Assembly (NCBI RefSeq): GCF_030384885.1
Contig: NZ_CP128613.1
DNA from: Escherichia coli
GTDB taxonomy: Bacteria > Pseudomonadota > Gammaproteobacteria > Enterobacterales > Enterobacteriaceae
Strand: one strand, 5' to 3'
DNA: 64,000 nt
Made by a program: the position numbers. The first letter of the stretch is position 1. Every line of letters starts with the position of its first letter. Positions 46,301-52,300 of this stretch are shown piece by piece.

Positions 46301-49300
46301 GCCTGTCAGCGCCAGCGAGGATCTCGGCGCAGGTACGCATGTTGAGGTGATTGCGATAGAAGGGATAACGCTGATTATCCGTGCGGTCATCGCCTGATGC
46401 GACGCTGGCGCGTCTTATCATGCCTACAAAATATGCCCGAATCGTAGGCCAGATAAGGCGCTTGCGCCGCATCCGGCATATAGCCGAGTAGAGGCAAAAT
46501 TACTCTTCCCGGCCTTTACCCATACTTTTTTGGTCTTCATCCGGATAATGTTTTTTTAGATATTCCAGGACGTTTTTATTGACCTTGTGTTGCGTATACA
46601 CCCACCCTTTCCAGTAATCAGGCTGGTCCAGGTAAACTTCTGGCGGAATGGTGAAATCAGAAAGCGTTAACCATTCGGCTAATAGATCGGGGTTTCGTTT
46701 CTGGATTAACTGCAACAGCATAATCAGTGACATAGCTGAGGCAGGAGCCGTACTATCGCCACTTAAATATTTCCACACTGTTGACCGGTTCGAACGAAAA
46801 AGGATCGGTAGCAATGCCCGGTCCAGATTCATTTCATTAAAAATCTTCTCAAATTCATTCATTTAAATTTTCCTGCCTGGCGTAAACCTCTTAAAAATTG
46901 AGATTTATCAAAGAAACGCATTTTAGCACACATCAGGAACTGCTTCACGTTTAGTCCAGAAACAGAATTTATTTCGCTTATCAAAACAAGTCTTTACTCT
47001 TTTTTACATTAAAAGAGCACGAAATGTTTTCCTTTTTAATTTATAAAAGAAACATTTTTTGTTTCTTATTTGTGGTGTTTACGCTTACACCAGACAAAAA
47101 TGTGCTTTACATCACACAAATGGCGGCGTAGATTTCGATTAAATTGCAACGTAGTTTATTTCTTAAAACAATATTATTTGTTTCTTATAGAAACATTAAT
47201 GCGACTTATTTTGAACAAGAGAAAATGAATGAAAACTGTAAACGTAGCTTTACTGGCACTCATAATTTCAGCAACATCCAGCCCTGTTGTTTTAGCTGGT
47301 GATACCATTGAAGCGGCGGCAACAGAGCTTTCAGCCATTAACTCTGGCATGTCGCAATCGGAGATTGAGCAGAAGATTACCCGCTTTTTAGAACGCACCG
47401 ACAACAGCCCCGCTGCATATACCTATTTGACTGAACATCACTACATCCCTTCTGAAACACCTGATACCACTCAGACTCCCCCTGTCCAGACAGATCCTGA
47501 CGCAGGACAAAAAACCGTTGCCGCTACAGGTGATGTACAGACAACCGCCCGTTATCAGAGCATGATCAACGCCCGACAGTCTGCGGTAACTGATGCCCAG
47601 CAAACGCAAATTACAGAGCAACAGGCGCAGATCGTAGCCACACAAAAAACGCTCGCCGCGACTGGAGATACGCAAAATACTGCGCATTATCAGGAGATGA
47701 TTAATGCCAGACTGGCGGCTCAAAATGAGGCTAATCAGCGCACTACCACGGAACAAGGGCAGAAAATGAATGCACTGACAACCGATGTGGCAGCACAACA
47801 GCAAAAAGAAAGGGCTCAATACGATAAACAAATGCAAAGTCTGGCGCAGAAGTCTGTCCAGGCACATGAGCAAATTGAAAGTCTGAGACAAGATTCCGCA
47901 CAAACGCAGCAACAGTTAACCAACACCCAAAAACGGGTCGCAGATAACAGCCAACAAATTAACACGCTCAATAACCATTTCGATTCTCTGAAAAACGAAG
48001 TTGAGGACAATCGTAAAGAAGCCAATGCGGGAACTGCATCTGCCATCGCTATCGCTTCACAACCACAGGTGAAAACCGGTGACTTTATGATGGTGTCTGC
48101 AGGAGCGGGAACGTTCAACGGTGAATCTGCGGTGTCTGTCGGAACATCATTTAATGCTGGAATTCATACAGTAATTAAAGCGGGAGTCTCTGCGGATACA
48201 CAATCTGATTTCGGCGCGGGTGTCGGCGTGGGGTATTCGTTCTAATTTTAATAGCAATTTCTTATTCGCAATTTTCCGTACATTATTTAAGGTTAACAAT
48301 GATGAATAGCTCCATTAAATCGTTTTCCCTGCTGGCGGTTATATTACTGGCTGGCTGTAGTTCACCCACTTCCCGCATCGCAGATTGCCAAGCGCAGGGA
48401 GTCAGTCATGACACCTGTTATCTCGCAGAACAACAGCGTCAGGCGGCTATTTTAAGTGCATCAGAAGCACAGGCATTTAAAAATGCAGAAGCCGCACAAC
48501 ATGCCCAGGCCGCTAAAAAATCTATTTATAAAGGATTTGGCGTCACCTTCAGAATGAGCAGTAAGAACTTTGCTTATCTCAATGATTCATTATGTGCCAT
48601 AGATGAAGATAATGCCGATGCCACGGTTTATCAGTCGGGTCTGTATAACGTCATTGTTTATCATCACACAGGAAAAGTAGCCTTAATGAAAGAAGGCCAG
48701 TTTGTGGGTTATTTAAAATGAAACTCACGCTTATACATATTATGATTATTGGCGCTTTTATCTTTGCATTCTTGCAAGTGGTATTATTAGCCTCCCTGGT
48801 TCACGCTGTGAATGTTAACAACGAAATCCAGGAAGGCTTATTTCAGTCGGGGCGCATTATGGTAGAAAGTTTGCAGCATATTCTGTCTGTGCAACCGGGG
48901 ATTAACGGGTAAGAGCACCGCTTCCATTTATAGAGCAATAGTCACCCGCGTAATTTTCTGGCACAGTTCAGGGAACTGAAATTTTGGCTAAGGAGTAGCC
49001 ATGCTTTTTCCCTGTCGAAAACCTGAAGTACGTCTGCTGAAAAATACCGCTGCGGGCGTCATTTTTTCGGTGAAGTCAGGTAAAGGATTTCTGCGTCAAT
49101 GTGTGATTTACGATCCGCACCCTTATGGGCTTATCCGTTCGCTCTGCTGGCAGGATGTCCCGTTAATACGTTTCTGGTCCGAGGCTGGCTGCCCCACCTG
49201 TGCGGAATTTGTCTACAGCGGTTTTGCGGATGATGAACAGGGAGCCGCCCGGTTTTTGTCTGCTCTCGAAAACTGGAATCGCCCGTGGTCTGGCATGACG

Positions 49301-52300
49301 GACGCTTTTGCCGCGCTGACACCGCTGTTCTCATGCATGGCTGATGGCTATTATCTGCTCGAAGATCGTGAAATTTACCCGACGGATGGCAACGGGCATT
49401 TCTTTTGGGCGGCAACGGACCATAGCGCCAGTAATCCGGCGACCGTTGCCGTCTGGGATCCTGAATATTGCTATTTCAGTGACACCGCCCCCTGTTTTCT
49501 TCTACCCGGCCAGCCGCCATCACATTTTAATCCTGAGCGTGCGACGTTTTATCGCGATAAACCGGACGCCCGCGCTCTGGCCTGGTATCTCCCTGATTCC
49601 TATCTCTGCGTTCTGCTCGACGGGCACCATAAGGCCACTGCTGCCGCACTGGAAGGGCGACCGCTCAAAACACTGGTACTCAGCACGGCAACCCGTTTTA
49701 ATGATGAGCAACAAACACTGGTATTTCCGGGCGGAGAATGTCTGCACAAAACAGAGCTACTGTGCCACGTTCCCAAACTCACTGAGTGGAAAACATTACC
49801 GCCCGGCGCATGGGAGAGTTTCGGCCCTGATAAGCACATCAGCCCATCCGAAACCTGGTCTGAAGAGTTGCAGCAGAGCGTCAGTCGGTACCCTTCACTG
49901 GATCAAGCCTGGCAAATTGTTGAGGCCGGGAATTTGAGCGAAACTCGTATTAAGAGCATGATCCAACAAGGTTTGGGGGAGGATGAAAAGGCTGATGTAA
50001 TTTTGCAGGCACTGTTTTCCACACACTCGCCGCTTTTTATTGACTTTGCCCGATTCGTTATCAGCTATCCGGCATACGCCAGTTATCGCCCCCTCACCTT
50101 CCGGTTGATGGCGCAAAACCGAACGCCGCAAGCAGATGCTTTTTTTCTGGATTTTGCCATCAATGATGACGGCGAACGTCCGGAGTTGACGAAAATAATG
50201 GACGACTATTTTCGCAAGCGTTAATCACCCCGCCCGATGATGACAGCAGCCGGAGAGATTTTCGATAATCGGGCAGTCGGCGCTGTCATCACCGGGGCAG
50301 GCATTCGCCAGCGCCAGTAACTGGTTGCGCATGGATTGCAGCTCCTCAATGTGTCGTTCGATCTCCGCCACCTTCTCCAACGTGCGCCGTTTGACGTCGG
50401 CGCTATGCCGCTGCGGGTCGTTAAACAGATTCACCAGTTCGCCGCTCTCTTCCAGGTTAAAGCCCACCTGACGCGCCTGGCGCAGTAAGGTCAGTTCGTT
50501 GAGATGCTGCTGCGTGTAGGTTCGATAACCGTTTTCGCTGCGCATCGGCGGCGTCACCAGCCCCTTTTCTTCATAGAAGCGAATGGCTTTGCTGGTCAGG
50601 CCGGTAATTTTTGCTACATCGCTAATGTTCATCGTTCGCGCAACGCCTCCTGTGCTTTGTTAAAGGGTTTCAACAGATAATCCAGCACGCTTTTTTTGCC
50701 GGTGCGGATATCGACCGTCGCCACCATGCCGGGAAATATCGGAAACTGCTGTTTATGTTTATTTTCCAGATGGTTGCTGAAAGTGCGAATGTACACCCGA
50801 TAGTAATAAACATCGCGCCGCACTTCATCCTGCACGGTGTCCGGTGAAATCACCGCCACTTCCCCTGGCAGGCCGCCGTAGATGGAATAATCGTAAGCGG
50901 TTATTTTCACCAGCGATTTTTGCCCCGGATGGATAAACGCCACATCGCGGGGGGAGATTTTTGCCTCGATCAGCAGTTGCTCATCCAGCGGCACGATGGT
51001 CATCAGTTTACCACCGGGGGCGATGACGCCGCCAACCGTGGTGACGTCAATGTCCTGAACAATGCCTCGCACCGGCGCAGTAAAGTTGAGCCGCGTGAGA
51101 GAATCTTCCCGCCCGCGGATCACCGAACGCTGGGTTTCCACTTCCGCATTGGCTTTCGCTAACTCTTCGCGCGCCTGAACGTAGTATTGCGTGCGCACGT
51201 CGCTAAGTTTGTTTTCCAGTTCATTGGCCTGACGTTGCAGGCGCAGCACTTCGACGCTGCTCGCCGCCCCCTGTTTTACCAGCGGCTGGGTCATCGCCAG
51301 TTCGCGGTTGACCAGGCTAATCCCCTGCGTCAGCCCGGTGGTGGCTTTGTTCAGCCCATCGCGGCGAGTGTTATATAACGCCGTTTCCGACTCGATAAGT
51401 TCGGGGAATTTATTCAGTTCGTCAGGGAAGACCAGCGGTTTATTGCTCACTTCCGCCCGCAGCCGCGCCGAGGTTGCCAGCGCCGCGTACAGCCGCGACA
51501 TCGCTTCCTGGACGTCGGATTCCGTTTTGGTGCGGTTAAGCTGTGCCAGCGGCTGCCCCTGTTCGACAATATCGCCAACCTTCACGTCGAGATGATACAA
51601 AATCCCGCCTTCCAGAGACTGCACCACCTGTTCGCGTCCAGAAGGTTCTACCGTGCCGCTGCCGGTGGTGACTTCATCAAGCTGGAAGTACCACGCCCAG
51701 CCGAGAAAACAGAGCAGCATCACAGCGGTAACGCGCACCGCCAGCGCCGAACGTGGCAGGCGGGGTTCAGTCAGGCCACGGTTGTATTGCAGTTGTCCGT
51801 TCATGCGGCAGACCCCTTATTCTTCTCCTGCAACACCACGCGTCGCGTCGTGGGTTCGCCCTGTTCACGCAAAATGGTCTCTTTCGCGCCGTCCATCACA
51901 ATGCGCCCCTGATCCATCACAATTATCCTGTCCACCAGTTGCAGCATTGCCGTGCGGTGAGTAGCGATGACCAGCGTGCGATGGCCAATCCACTGTTTTA
52001 GTTGTTCAATTAAATACGCTTCCGCCATTTCATCCAGCGAGGCACTGGGTTCATCGAGCAGCACGATATTGGGTTGAGAGATGAGGAGCCGCGCCAGCAG
52101 CAGCGTTTGTCGCTGACCACCAGAGAGGCCAAATCCCCCTTCCTGAATCATGTAGTTGAGGCCGTTTTTCTGCTTCTGCACAAAGGGCAGCGCCCCGCTG
52201 AGGGTTAATGCGCGTTCGATATCTTCATCGCTGGCTTCTGGCATCCCCATGGTGAGGTTTTCCCGCAGCGAACCGAAGAACAGTCGCCCGGTCTGGCTGA

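What the first reader, a model, noticed from the sequence alone, without database searches (positions are those of the whole stretch)
46496..50224. Accessory module of about 3.7 kb inserted between ybbJ and cueR
Established knowledge: in K-12, ybbJ and cueR are adjacent and convergent. Here five ORFs occupy that gap: a divergent 120-aa gene, a 338-aa YadA-anchor protein, a lipoprotein, a small membrane protein and a 407-aa unknown protein. The module is bounded on the left by a REP element (46400-46492) and on the right abuts the cueR stop with zero spacing. None of the products resembles a housekeeping function, and I recognise no named family for the 120-aa and 407-aa proteins. Taken together it looks like a small cell-surface module with its own regulator, which I do not recognise as a described system.
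Basis: partly seen in the sequence, partly recalled or inferred. Interest (0 to 1): 0.78.

Follow-up and report, generated by a model that had tools for sequence, protein, structure and literature searches.

The report
Adhesin cassette OI-29 plus unrelated gene
The gap between ybbJ and cueR holds two unrelated pieces: a four-gene surface-adhesin cassette already catalogued in E. coli O157:H7 as O-island 29, whose central gene was published as a transcription factor although its sequence is that of an outer-membrane adhesin, and a separate, older gene of unknown function with a ParB/sulfiredoxin-like core.

Summary
The five ORFs, the REP element and the zero spacing to cueR are all real. But this is not one module, and it is not undescribed. 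The left four genes are the 120-aa gene, the 338-aa YadA-anchor protein, the lipoprotein and the 64-aa membrane protein. They are O-island 29 / S-loop 43 of EHEC O157:H7 (z0640, z0639, z0638). They occur in 1416 of 5426 complete E. coli genomes and, as a unit, in Pseudocitrobacter. The 407-aa gene has its own distribution: alone in Nissle, absent in O157, and syntenic between ybbJ and cueR in other Enterobacteriaceae. It has a ParB/Srx-like fold and no Pfam family.

z0639 was published as "GmrA", a transcriptional activator that binds the fliA promoter. The paper's deletion primers map exactly onto the trimeric-autotransporter CDS. That protein has a signal peptide, a coiled-coil stalk, a YadA anchor, pI 4.9 and no recognisable DNA-binding domain. 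I read the cassette as a surface-fibre operon with a conserved control region carrying six AGAAAC hexamers, and the motility phenotype as probably indirect. The roles of the lipoprotein, the small protein and the 120-aa protein are inferred only. Interest is moderate: the island is known, but one published label conflicts with the sequence, and three proteins remain uncharacterised.

The parts
46398..46485 (.). REP pair (BIME) between the convergent ybbJ and 120-aa genes. It is shared with genomes that lack the cassette, so it belongs to the backbone and not to the insert.
   Evidence: The alignment with Nissle runs through window position 46485.
46486..48982 (.). Cassette indel of 2497 bp, equal to O-island 29 of O157:H7. 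In Nissle it is replaced by 23 bp. It has no flanking direct or inverted repeats and no IS ends.
   Evidence: The OI-29 deletion primers of PMC5826968 map to the ybbJ end and the cueR end. GC is 30-48% against 52.7% for the window.
46500..46862 (-). 120-aa protein (z0640). It has no signal peptide or TM segment, and its N-terminal 85 residues are strongly conserved. It is divergent from the TAA gene wherever it is found. I treat it as a putative regulator, by inference only.
   Evidence: Homologs are 60-86% identical in Pseudocitrobacter, Symbiopectobacterium and metagenomes, always divergent from a TAA gene across a gap of about 368 bp. dN/dS is 0.02. HTH hints are weak: Pfam MqsA_antitoxin E 0.012-0.12 and Foldseek HigA2 E 1.7. 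hhalign against XRE sequences was negative.
46863..47228 (.). Divergent control region of 366 bp at 30% GC. It carries six AGAAAC/GTTTCT hexamers (46912, 46958, 47048, 47061, 47180, 47189) and a 34-nt direct repeat (47036-47069 and 47155-47188) that brackets the predicted TAA promoter. It also has a TTTAC-N5-TTTAC box at about 46996-47011 and, on the minus strand, TGCTAAAAT (an extended -10) at about 46921-46929 for the 120-aa gene.
   Evidence: Six hexamers against 0.25 expected; the maximum in 5000 shuffles was 3. Several motifs are invariant in E. coli, Pseudocitrobacter and a metagenome locus.
47106..47134 (+). Predicted sigma-70 promoter of the TAA operon (TTTACA-17-TAGATT), in the best-conserved block of the intergenic region.
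   Evidence: Consensus scan. The block GCTTTAC.T.ACA...GCGGCGTA.ATT.C is conserved in all six aligned loci. No transcript data are available.
47229..48245 (+). 338-aa headless trimeric autotransporter, equal to z0639 / ECs0548 / published 'GmrA'. Signal peptide at 1-23 (…VVLA|GD). N-terminal region at 24-93. Two 27-residue repeats 45 residues apart (94-120 and 139-165). Q/A/T-rich coiled-coil stalk up to about 278. YadA anchor at 279-338.
   Evidence: Pfam YadA_anchor E 1.2e-10. Solved anchors match: AtaA E 2.5e-7, Hia 3.6e-6, YadA 0.12. Signal peptides are present in orthologs. The gmrA deletion arms flank exactly this CDS. pI 4.9, net charge -12.
48299..48721 (+). 140-aa lipoprotein (z0638). 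Lipobox LLAGC with Ser at +2, which predicts outer-membrane sorting by the Lol rule. Two further conserved Cys (C30, C40). A Q/A-rich helix is followed by a C-terminal region of about 65 residues. Possible TAA partner, inferred.
   Evidence: Alignment. It lies downstream of a TAA in E. coli, Pseudocitrobacter and Enterobacter asburiae. Stand-alone paralogs also exist. No similarity to SadB or YajI at E<=10 or to BamE. dN/dS 0.055.
48718..48912 (+). 64-aa protein with one TM segment, translationally coupled to the lipoprotein through an ATGA overlap.
   Evidence: Homologs follow the lipoprotein in Pseudocitrobacter and follow the TAA directly in metagenome locus L012.
49001..50224 (+). 407-aa cytoplasmic protein, a separate unit. 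N-terminal beta domain with CPTC (64-67). ParB/Srx-like core with YPTDGxGxFFW and LLDGHHKAxAAAL (D207 G208 H209 invariant). C-terminal helical repeat (288-405). The segment 48904-50224 is missing in O157:H7.

Best explanation
The ybbJ-cueR gap is a mosaic of two independent units.

**Unit 1 (46486-48982)** is the low-GC cassette known as O-island 29. It is an operon for a short, headless trimeric autotransporter. The protein is exported by Sec, anchored in the outer membrane by a 4-strand-per-chain YadA barrel, and displays a Q/A/T-rich coiled-coil fibre. Two envelope proteins follow it: an outer-membrane lipoprotein and a translationally coupled single-pass membrane protein. I infer that they act on or with the fibre in the periplasm, by analogy with SadB and TpgA.

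The operon is transcribed from a conserved promoter in a 366-bp AT-rich region. That region is shared with a divergent, highly conserved 120-aa cytoplasmic protein, which I infer to be the cassette's regulator. The repeated AGAAAC hexamers that bracket the promoter are candidate operators.

The published name of the central gene, GmrA, 'transcriptional activator of fliA', refers to this same autotransporter. I consider the reported effect on flagella most likely indirect, through envelope or surface signalling or through overexpression, rather than direct promoter binding.

**Unit 2 (49001-50224)** is an older, core-GC resident of the qmcA-ybbJ-X-cueR neighbourhood in Enterobacteriaceae. It encodes a cytoplasmic protein with a ParB/sulfiredoxin-like, probably nucleotide-binding, core. 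Most E. coli have lost it or hold a decayed copy.

**Shown:** the gene anatomy, the identity with OI-29/gmrA, the independence of the two units, the TAA features and the ParB/Srx-like fold.

**Inferred:** the partner role of the lipoprotein and small protein, the regulator role of the 120-aa protein, the operator role of AGAAAC, the indirect nature of the motility effect, and nucleotide binding by the 407-aa protein.
For: **Identity with OI-29.** All eight deletion-primer arms of PMC5826968 map without mismatch in an O157:H7 locus. They flank the 120-aa CDS (z0640), the TAA CDS (gmrA) and the lipoprotein CDS (z0638) exactly. ECs0548 is listed as 'Saa-like protein, S-loop43'.

**TAA features.**
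- YadA_anchor E 1.2e-10.
- Solved anchors of AtaA, Hia and YadA match.
- Signal peptides are conserved in orthologs of 293-528 aa.
- The protein is acidic, pI 4.9.
- The only 'DNA-binding' Pfam match is the coiled-coil family TMF_DNA_bd at E 0.079.

**Cassette unity.**
- 1402 of the 1416 E. coli genomes that carry it have at least 80% of it.
- The same four genes in the same order, with the same gap of about 368 bp, occur in Pseudocitrobacter at a different insertion point.
- The 120-aa/TAA pair is also found in a metagenome and in Symbiopectobacterium.
- A TAA-lipoprotein pair is found in Enterobacter asburiae.

**Control region.** Six AGAAAC hexamers against 0.25 expected. Motifs and promoter are conserved across genera. 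A repeat brackets the promoter.

**Selection.** dN/dS is 0.02 for the 120-aa gene, 0.055 for the lipoprotein and 0.20 for the TAA.

**Independence of the 407-aa gene.**. GC is 52.5% against 42-48% for the cassette.

**Fold of the 407-aa protein.**
Against: - Yang et al. 2018 report EMSA with competition, a 7.75-fold ChIP-qPCR enrichment at the fliA promoter, complementation by gmrA alone, and increased motility in K-12 carrying gmrA. I have no experiment that overturns these.
- Their ΔOI-29 mutant adhered normally to HeLa and Caco-2 cells, so no adhesive function has been shown.
- Deleting z0638 or z0640 gave no motility phenotype.
- The lipoprotein family has stand-alone paralogs with no TAA nearby (L019, L023 twice, L024). 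It shows no similarity to SadB, YajI or BamE.
- The 120-aa protein has no significant match to any DNA-binding family. Its AF2 model is poor, pLDDT 64.
- There are no transcript data for the promoter or the operon.
- No member of the 407-aa family matches Pfam ParBc. Its motif ends in Lys (DGHHK), not the Arg of the ParB-superfamily motifs as I recall them (a comparison made from memory, not tested here).
Confidence: 0.6

Rival explanations
1. [not shown]
For: - EMSA with competition and a 7.75-fold ChIP-qPCR enrichment.
- ΔgmrA is aflagellate and is complemented by gmrA.
- Epistasis with fliA.
- The effect was reproduced in eight strains and in K-12 carrying gmrA (PMC5826968).
Against: - The CDS encodes a cleavable signal peptide, conserved in orthologs.
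- It has a full YadA anchor that matches solved TAA barrels.
- No DNA-binding family scores above noise.
- pI is 4.9 and net charge -12.
- Passengers diverge to about 30% identity and vary from 293 to 528 aa between genera, while only the anchor is conserved. That is the pattern of a surface protein, not of a transcription factor.
- The EMSA protein carried an N-terminal His tag in front of the signal peptide and was produced in the BL21 cytoplasm. ChIP used a plasmid-expressed FLAG fusion.
Confidence: 0.15
2. One reading: all five genes form one co-inherited cell-surface module that was inserted as a unit.
For: They are contiguous in this strain. The last four are on one strand with short gaps. 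About 160 genomes carry everything.
Against: - The 407-aa gene occurs without the cassette (Nissle) and the cassette without it (O157).
- The counts show no positive association.
- Homologs at 49-52% identity sit between ybbJ and cueR in genomes that have no cassette.
- GC and GC3 differ between the two units.
- The protein is cytoplasmic, with a ParB/Srx-like fold.
Confidence: 0.03
3. The lipoprotein and the small membrane protein are not TAA partners. They are an independent envelope pair that merely sits downstream, and the 120-aa protein is not a regulator.
For: - Stand-alone lipoprotein paralogs exist without a TAA, the small protein or the 120-aa gene.
- E. asburiae lacks both the 120-aa gene and the small gene.
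- L012 lacks the lipoprotein.
- There is no similarity to SadB, TpgA or BamE.
- The HTH tests were not significant.
Against: - Gene order, spacing and the ATGA coupling are kept across genera although the insertion point differs.
- The 120-aa gene was found only divergent from a TAA gene in every locus examined.
- SadB also has a TAA-unlinked paralog, YajI, so stand-alone paralogs do not exclude a helper role.
Confidence: 0.3
4. The 407-aa gene is a functionless relic in E. coli, on its way to being lost.
For: Only 270 of the 965 genomes that carry it keep at least 80% of its length. Most hold an internally deleted, frameshifted remnant of about 700 bp. dN/dS is 0.17, higher than the 0-0.06 of its neighbours.
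Against: It is intact here and in Nissle. A dN/dS of 0.17 still indicates purifying selection. The family is large, with conserved motifs from Proteobacteria to Firmicutes.
Confidence: 0.3

Closest known systems
O-island 29 (z0638-z0640) / S-loop 43 of E. coli O157:H7; GmrA (Yang et al. 2018, PMC5826968)
   Same: It is the same locus and the same genes. The primer arms map exactly, and identity to the O157 copy is 94-97% at nucleotide level.
   Different: This strain also carries the 407-aa gene, which O157 lacks. The small 64/67-aa ORF was not among the three genes named in the paper. The published function, a transcription factor, disagrees with the sequence features found here.
SadA-SadB of Salmonella and E. 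coli: a TAA with a dedicated trimeric lipoprotein (Grin et al. 2014, PMC3953254)
   Same: A TAA in an operon with a small lipoprotein. That lipoprotein has a lipid anchor, a Q-rich helix and a C-terminal globular part. A TAA-unlinked paralog exists, and K-12 lacks the whole unit.
   Different: No sequence similarity. SadB is upstream of its TAA, about 213 residues long, and retained in the inner membrane by Asp at +2. Here the lipoprotein is downstream, 140 residues long, has Ser at +2, and is followed by an extra single-pass membrane protein. A helper function has not been tested.
AtaA-TpgA of Acinetobacter sp. Tol 5: a TAA with a BamE-like/OmpA-like periplasmic partner
   Same: A TAA gene followed by an envelope partner gene. 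The best anchor match of this TAA among solved structures is AtaA.
   Different: The lipoprotein has no BamE similarity beyond the lipobox, and Pfam finds no OmpA-like domain.
Short and headed TAAs: Saa, Eib, YadA, Hia
   Same: Signal peptide, coiled-coil stalk and a C-terminal YadA anchor. Ogura et al. called it 'Saa-like'.
   Different: Pfam finds no YadA head, Hep_Hag, HIM or neck motifs. The passenger is a Q/A/T-rich coiled coil with a 45-residue repeat. The 2026 TAA helper survey analysed only TAAs with a YadA head, so by that criterion this headless type would have fallen outside it.
ParB/sulfiredoxin superfamily: Srx, SerK, SbnI, KorB, PadC
   Different: No Pfam ParBc match in any of 52 members. 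The motif ends in Lys. The protein has extra N-terminal beta (CPTC) and C-terminal helical-repeat domains. It sits in no partition, defence or phage context: no PADLOC or PHROG hit, and only 1 relative among the 110 pattern-matched stretches of the viral contig collection, which holds 2.9 million contigs.

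Membership tests
Trimeric autotransporter adhesins (type Vc) | C-terminal YadA-like membrane anchor (four strands per chain) | tested here: met
   Pfam PF03895 covers 1-60 of its 60 positions at residues 279-338, E 1.2e-10. phmmer matches the solved anchors of AtaA (2.5e-7), Hia (3.6e-6) and YadA (0.12).
Trimeric autotransporter adhesins (type Vc) | N-terminal Sec signal peptide | tested here: met
   By sequence inspection: MKTVNVALLALIISATSSPVVLA|GD, with a Kyte-Doolittle maximum of 3.0. 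Comparable signal peptides are present in most orthologs. No dedicated predictor was available.
Trimeric autotransporter adhesins (type Vc) | Coiled-coil stalk running into the anchor | tested here: met
   Residues of about 100-278 give only coiled-coil-type matches (SMC, ATG16, CCDC93). The anchor-proximal sequence is NRKEANAGTASAIAIASQPQ.
Trimeric autotransporter adhesins (type Vc) | Head or neck adhesive domains (YadA head, Hep_Hag, HIM) | tested here: not met
   No such Pfam match. The protein is headless, so the adhesin part of the name is not established. ΔOI-29 adhered normally to HeLa and Caco-2 cells.
Trimeric autotransporter adhesins (type Vc) | Trimerisation and surface exposure | not testable with these tools
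   Needs fractionation, heat-modifiability tests and protease shaving, or a multimer structure prediction.
Bacterial transcription factor (the published GmrA assignment) | A recognisable DNA-binding domain and a cytoplasmic location | tested here: not met
   No DNA-binding family in Pfam or NCBIfam beyond the coiled-coil TMF_DNA_bd at E 0.079. The protein has a signal peptide and an outer-membrane anchor and a pI of 4.9. The experimental DNA binding claimed in PMC5826968 cannot be re-tested here.
SadB/YajI TAA-helper lipoproteins | Sequence homology to SadB or YajI | tested here: not met
   A profile of 14 homologs against all PDB sequences at E<=10 returned no SadB or YajI entry. Solved structures exist for both proteins according to PMC3953254.
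SadB/YajI TAA-helper lipoproteins | Inner-membrane retention (Asp at +2) and operon with a TAA | tested here: inconclusive
   The operon with a TAA is met. The +2 residue is Ser, or Thr in some homologs, which predicts outer-membrane sorting. Stand-alone paralogs exist.
TpgA (BamE-like plus OmpA-like TAA partner) | BamE-like domain and a peptidoglycan-binding OmpA-like domain | tested here: not met
No OmpA family in Pfam.
XRE/MqsA-type helix-turn-helix regulators (120-aa protein) | Significant match to an HTH family or fold | tested here: inconclusive
   Pfam MqsA_antitoxin HTH region at E 0.12, best member 0.012. Foldseek top hit is the HigA2 HTH domain at E 1.7, on a model with pLDDT 64. hhalign against six hand-typed XRE domains gave probability 0.3%.
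ParB/sulfiredoxin superfamily (407-aa protein) | ParB/Srx fold with a phosphate-binding motif at a strand-to-helix junction | tested here: met
   [not shown]
ParB/sulfiredoxin superfamily (407-aa protein) | Sequence-profile membership (Pfam ParBc) and nucleotide binding | tested here: not met
   None of the 52 family members matches ParBc at E<=0.1. Nucleotide binding is not testable here.

The most novel reading that the evidence does not exclude
The OI-29 cassette is a self-contained system of a kind not yet described for type Vc secretion. A headless coiled-coil autotransporter works with a dedicated outer-membrane lipoprotein and a single-pass inner-membrane protein, forming a periplasm-spanning partner pair unrelated to SadB or TpgA. 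The system is controlled by a private small regulator that binds the AGAAAC array. The published 'GmrA transcription factor' is then a mis-assignment, and the flagellar phenotype reports envelope signalling triggered by this surface fibre.
Probability: 0.25. Interest if true: 0.65.

Novelty: new member of a known kind. Interest (0 to 1): 0.42.

Why it matters
1. A gene that reviews of EHEC regulation list as a direct activator of fliA (GmrA) is, by sequence, an exported outer-membrane trimeric autotransporter. If the direct-binding model is wrong, part of the published flagellar regulatory map of O157:H7 needs revision. A link between surface-fibre expression and motility would become the real question.

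2. The cassette is carried by 26% of complete E. coli genomes, including O157:H7, UTI89-type ExPEC and APEC. It offers a compact four-gene test case for whether headless TAAs use helper proteins, a type that the 2026 global helper survey's head-domain criterion would have excluded.

3. The 407-aa protein represents a family of at least 356 clusters at 50% identity. It has a confident ParB/Srx-like model and no Pfam entry, and it is syntenic with the SPFH/NfeD operon qmcA-ybbJ in Enterobacteriaceae.

None of this is a new kind of system, and the island itself is already catalogued.

Tried and rejected
**Family searches with no result**
- Pfam, NCBIfam, PADLOC and PHROGs for the 120-, 140-, 64- and 407-aa proteins gave nothing significant.
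- PDB sequence searches with profiles of the 407-, 120- and 140-aa families gave nothing.

**The 120-aa protein**
- The AF2 model had pLDDT 64, and the Foldseek search gave only non-significant hits.
- hhalign against hand-typed XRE domains was negative.
- The regulator label therefore stays an inference.

**The lipoprotein**
- hhalign against BamE matched the lipobox only.

**Defence, anti-defence or phage origin of the 407-aa gene (rejected)**
- No PADLOC or PHROG hit.
- Only one relative among the 110 pattern-matched stretches from the viral contig collection.
- The contexts of distant homologs are inconsistent.

**Mobile-element signatures around the cassette**
- I found no flanking direct or inverted repeats, no IS and no tRNA.

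**The K-12 junction**
- The last 28 nt of ybbJ differ sharply between K-12-type and insert-bearing genomes. I could not reconstruct a deletion event from this.

**Direction of evolution**
- The dS of cassette genes (0.14-0.28) equals that of the flanking core genes for the same strain pair.
- This favours old residence with repeated loss over the four recent acquisitions proposed in PMC5826968.
- It is suggestive only, because the genes are short and I did no phylogroup mapping.

**The CDD 'DNA-binding domain' in the paper's Figure S3B**
- I could not view the figure.
- My guess that it is the coiled-coil TMF_DNA_bd or an SMC-type hit is conjecture.

Full report
**Observation.**
- 120 aa at 46500-46862 (-)
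- 338 aa at 47229-48245 (+)
- 140 aa at 48299-48721 (+)
- 64 aa at 48718-48912 (+)
- 407 aa at 49001-50224 (+)

cueR follows at 50225-50632 (-), with no spacer. The window is 100% identical to E. coli 2013C-4282.

The left boundary is a true REP pair. The same REP occurs three more times in the window, with none expected by chance. It folds at -44.6 kcal/mol, z -4, and gives sub-threshold naRNA4 (REP-derived) matches. In K-12-type genomes ybbJ and cueR are adjacent.

**Two units, not one module.** Annotated regions from other E. coli show every combination:

| Configuration | Example |
|---|---|
| ybbJ, cueR | K-12-type |
| ybbJ, 407-aa gene, cueR | Nissle 1917 |
| ybbJ, 120-aa gene, TAA, lipoprotein, small ORF, cueR | O157:H7 |
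| All five genes | this strain |
| Frameshifted remnant of the 407-aa gene only | AH19B041 |

Pairwise alignment defines two indels. The cassette is 46486-48982; in Nissle 23 bp replace it. The 407 segment is 48904-50224 and is absent in O157.

Among 5426 complete genomes:
- The four-gene cassette is in 1416, and 1402 of those hold at least 80% of it.
- The 407-aa gene is in 965, but only 270 hold at least 80% of it.
- Only 160 cover at least 80% of the whole region, against about 252 expected if the two were independent.

GC content also separates them. The cassette genes are at 42-48% and the intergenic region at 30%. The 407-aa gene is at 52.5%, like the window average of 52.7%.

**The cassette is O-island 29.** A literature search for EDL933 locus tags led to Yang et al. 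2018 (PMC5826968). That paper describes OI-29, 2643 bp, with z0638, z0639 and z0640. Their deletion-primer arms map without mismatch in an O157:H7 locus, as follows:
- The z0640 arms flank the 120-aa CDS.
- The gmrA arms occupy the 39 bp before the ATG and the 38 bp after the stop of the 338-aa YadA-anchor CDS.
- The z0638 arms flank the lipoprotein CDS.

Ogura et al. 2007 list the same gene (ECs0548, S-loop 43) as a 'Saa-like protein' among adhesion genes.

**What z0639 is by sequence.**
- It has a typical signal peptide, MKTVNVALLALIISATSSPVVLA|GD.
- Two 27-residue repeats lie 45 residues apart.
- The passenger is Q/A/T-rich and matches only coiled-coil families.
- It has a full-length YadA_anchor, E 1.2e-10, which also matches the solved anchors of AtaA, Hia and YadA.
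- Orthologs from Pseudocitrobacter, Enterobacter and a metagenome range from 293 to 528 aa. They keep the signal peptide and the anchor but are only about 30% identical in the passenger. That is the usual pattern for a surface protein.
- It has no head, neck or Hep_Hag motifs, so it is a headless TAA.
- It is acidic, with pI 4.9 and net charge -12.
- The only 'DNA-binding' family it touches is the coiled-coil TMF_DNA_bd at E 0.079.

**The conflict with the published label.** Yang et al. call this protein a transcriptional activator that binds the fliA promoter, on the basis of EMSA, ChIP-qPCR and motility genetics. The EMSA protein was His-tagged in front of its signal peptide and made in the BL21 cytoplasm.

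I cannot overturn their experiments. The sequence makes a direct cytoplasmic role unlikely, and I put it at about 0.15. An indirect link between this surface protein and flagellar expression is the more economical reading. In the held library only two papers mention both GmrA and autotransporters. Both are EHEC O-island reviews that present GmrA as a direct fliA activator; I read only their GmrA passages.

**Is the four-gene cassette a functional unit?** The 120-aa protein has a narrow, highly conserved family of 21 clusters at 60-99% identity. In every locus I fetched, the gene is divergent from a TAA gene across about 368 bp.
- Three Pseudocitrobacter genomes keep all four genes in the same order, but the cassette lies between fetA and qmcA instead of between ybbJ and cueR.
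- A metagenome locus has a 528-aa TAA followed directly by a homolog of the small membrane protein.
- A Symbiopectobacterium genome has fragments of the TAA and the lipoprotein, but its 109-aa gene is intact.
- Enterobacter asburiae has a TAA-lipoprotein pair without the other two genes.

Selection is purifying: dN/dS is 0.02 for the 120-aa gene, 0.055 for the lipoprotein and 0.20 for the TAA. Between this strain and O157, the dS of cassette genes (0.14-0.28) equals that of the flanking core genes (0.14-0.22). This suggests long residence and repeated loss rather than recent independent gains.

**The control region.** The 366-bp intergenic region holds six AGAAAC/GTTTCT hexamers against 0.25 expected; the maximum in 5000 shuffles was 3. 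Several are invariant across genera.

The best-conserved block contains a TTTACA-17-TAGATT promoter-like site at 47106-47134. A 34-nt direct repeat ending in GTTTCTTAT lies on each side of it.

From memory, TTTAC-N5-TTTAC and GAAAC resemble CpxR and OmpR half-sites. That would fit the reported osmolarity and pH dependence of gmrA expression, but it is untested.

**The partner proteins.** The lipoprotein has a lipobox with Ser at +2, which predicts outer-membrane sorting. It also has two conserved Cys, a Q/A-rich helix and a C-terminal domain. The small ORF is translationally coupled to it.

This resembles SadB in architecture: a lipid anchor, a Q-rich coiled coil and a C-terminal domain, in an operon with a TAA, and with a TAA-unlinked paralog, YajI. 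However:
- There is no sequence similarity to SadB or YajI or to BamE.
- Gene order and predicted membrane differ.
- Stand-alone paralogs without a TAA exist.

A 2026 survey found only SadB and TpgA as TAA helpers. It analysed only TAAs with a YadA head, a criterion this headless type does not meet. The helper role is therefore a hypothesis, at about 0.35-0.4.

For the 120-aa protein the HTH evidence is weak: Pfam MqsA HTH at E 0.012-0.12, and Foldseek HigA2 at E 1.7 on a model with pLDDT 64. hhalign against XRE domains was negative.

**The 407-aa gene.** An exhaustive phmmer search found 356 representative clusters, most of about 420 aa. The conserved motifs are CPTC, YPTDGxGxFFW and LLDGHHKAxAAAL. 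AF2 gave pLDDT 92.4.

- helical-repeat proteins, for the C-terminal third;
- ParB/Srx-fold proteins, for the core: KorB 7.6, SerK 7.4, sulfiredoxin 7.4 and 6.7, SbnI 7.3, PadC 7.0.

Foldseek against AFDB50 found full-length homologs in Salmonella (53% identity, TM 0.96), Superficieibacter, Saezia and many Firmicutes, several annotated as ParB-like. No member matches Pfam ParBc or any other family. There is no defence or phage signal.

Homologs at 52% and 49% identity occupy the same position, after qmcA-ybbJ and before cueR, in two other enterobacterial contigs that have no cassette. In one, the start overlaps the ybbJ stop by 4 nt. The gene is therefore an old resident of this neighbourhood. 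It is being lost in E. coli but is still under purifying selection where intact, dN/dS 0.17.

**Verdict.** The feature is real, but most of it is already catalogued. It is a known O-island encoding a headless trimeric autotransporter with uncharacterised neighbours, plus an unrelated ParB/Srx-like gene.

The most useful result is that the published GmrA 'transcription factor' is this autotransporter. The most novel reading still open is that the lipoprotein, the small protein and the 120-aa protein form a new kind of TAA accessory and regulatory set (probability about 0.25).

Noticed in passing
window 50629-64000 (runs off the end): Immediately beyond cueR lie three genes. The first is a HlyD-family adaptor (50629-51804), whose stop overlaps the cueR start by 4 nt. 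The second is a type I secretion ABC permease/ATPase (51801-53963). The third is a 21.7-kb frameshifted siiEA/BapA-related giant adhesin gene. K-12-type and Nissle genomes keep only a 98-bp remnant of the HlyD gene, so their state on that side is a deletion. The EAEC 042 genome paper describes a syntenic RTX-like type I secretion locus with a CueR-like regulator and a frameshifted substrate gene, homologous to a locus in O157:H7.
   Followed up: partly
window 15932-15958, 16033-16059, 37852-37878: Three further copies of the same REP type that bounds the cassette.
   Followed up: no
L005 2512-4296 (E. coli SCU-313): A divergent cassette allele. Its TAA gene has an extra passenger-like segment (36% similar to residues 1-267) upstream of the annotated start, so the annotated 349-aa CDS probably begins internally or the gene is disrupted. 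325 genomes carry cassette alleles at only 80-90% identity.
   Followed up: partly
L010 4520-6330 (Symbiopectobacterium): The cassette is decaying here, with the TAA and the lipoprotein in fragments. The 109-aa homolog of the 120-aa gene stays intact at 82% identity. The locus is again near a Band_7/NfeD (qmcA-ybbJ-like) pair.
   Followed up: partly
L007-L009 (Pseudocitrobacter) versus window 44202-50632: The same four-gene cassette lies between fetA and qmcA in Pseudocitrobacter but between ybbJ and cueR in E. coli. That puts it on opposite sides of the qmcA-ybbJ operon. The recurrent linkage to this SPFH/NfeD operon is unexplained.
   Followed up: no
window 46370-46397 versus L004 3071-3098: The last 28 nt of ybbJ differ sharply between K-12-type genomes (…HIRAVSS*) and insert-bearing genomes (…IIRAVIA*). 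Only 17 of 28 bases are identical, against about 96% just upstream. This hints that an old indel junction lies inside the 3' end of ybbJ.
   Followed up: partly
L020 4291-7145: In a Salmonella-like contig the 411-aa homolog of the 407-aa gene is followed, before cueR, by a 722-aa protein with no Pfam family and by a DUF3142 protein.
   Followed up: no
L023 4001-4408 and 5634-5969; L024 1531-1956; L019 5001-5411: Stand-alone paralogs of the OI-29 lipoprotein (40-48% identity) occur without a TAA, the small protein or the 120-aa gene. Two of them are in one locus.
   Followed up: partly
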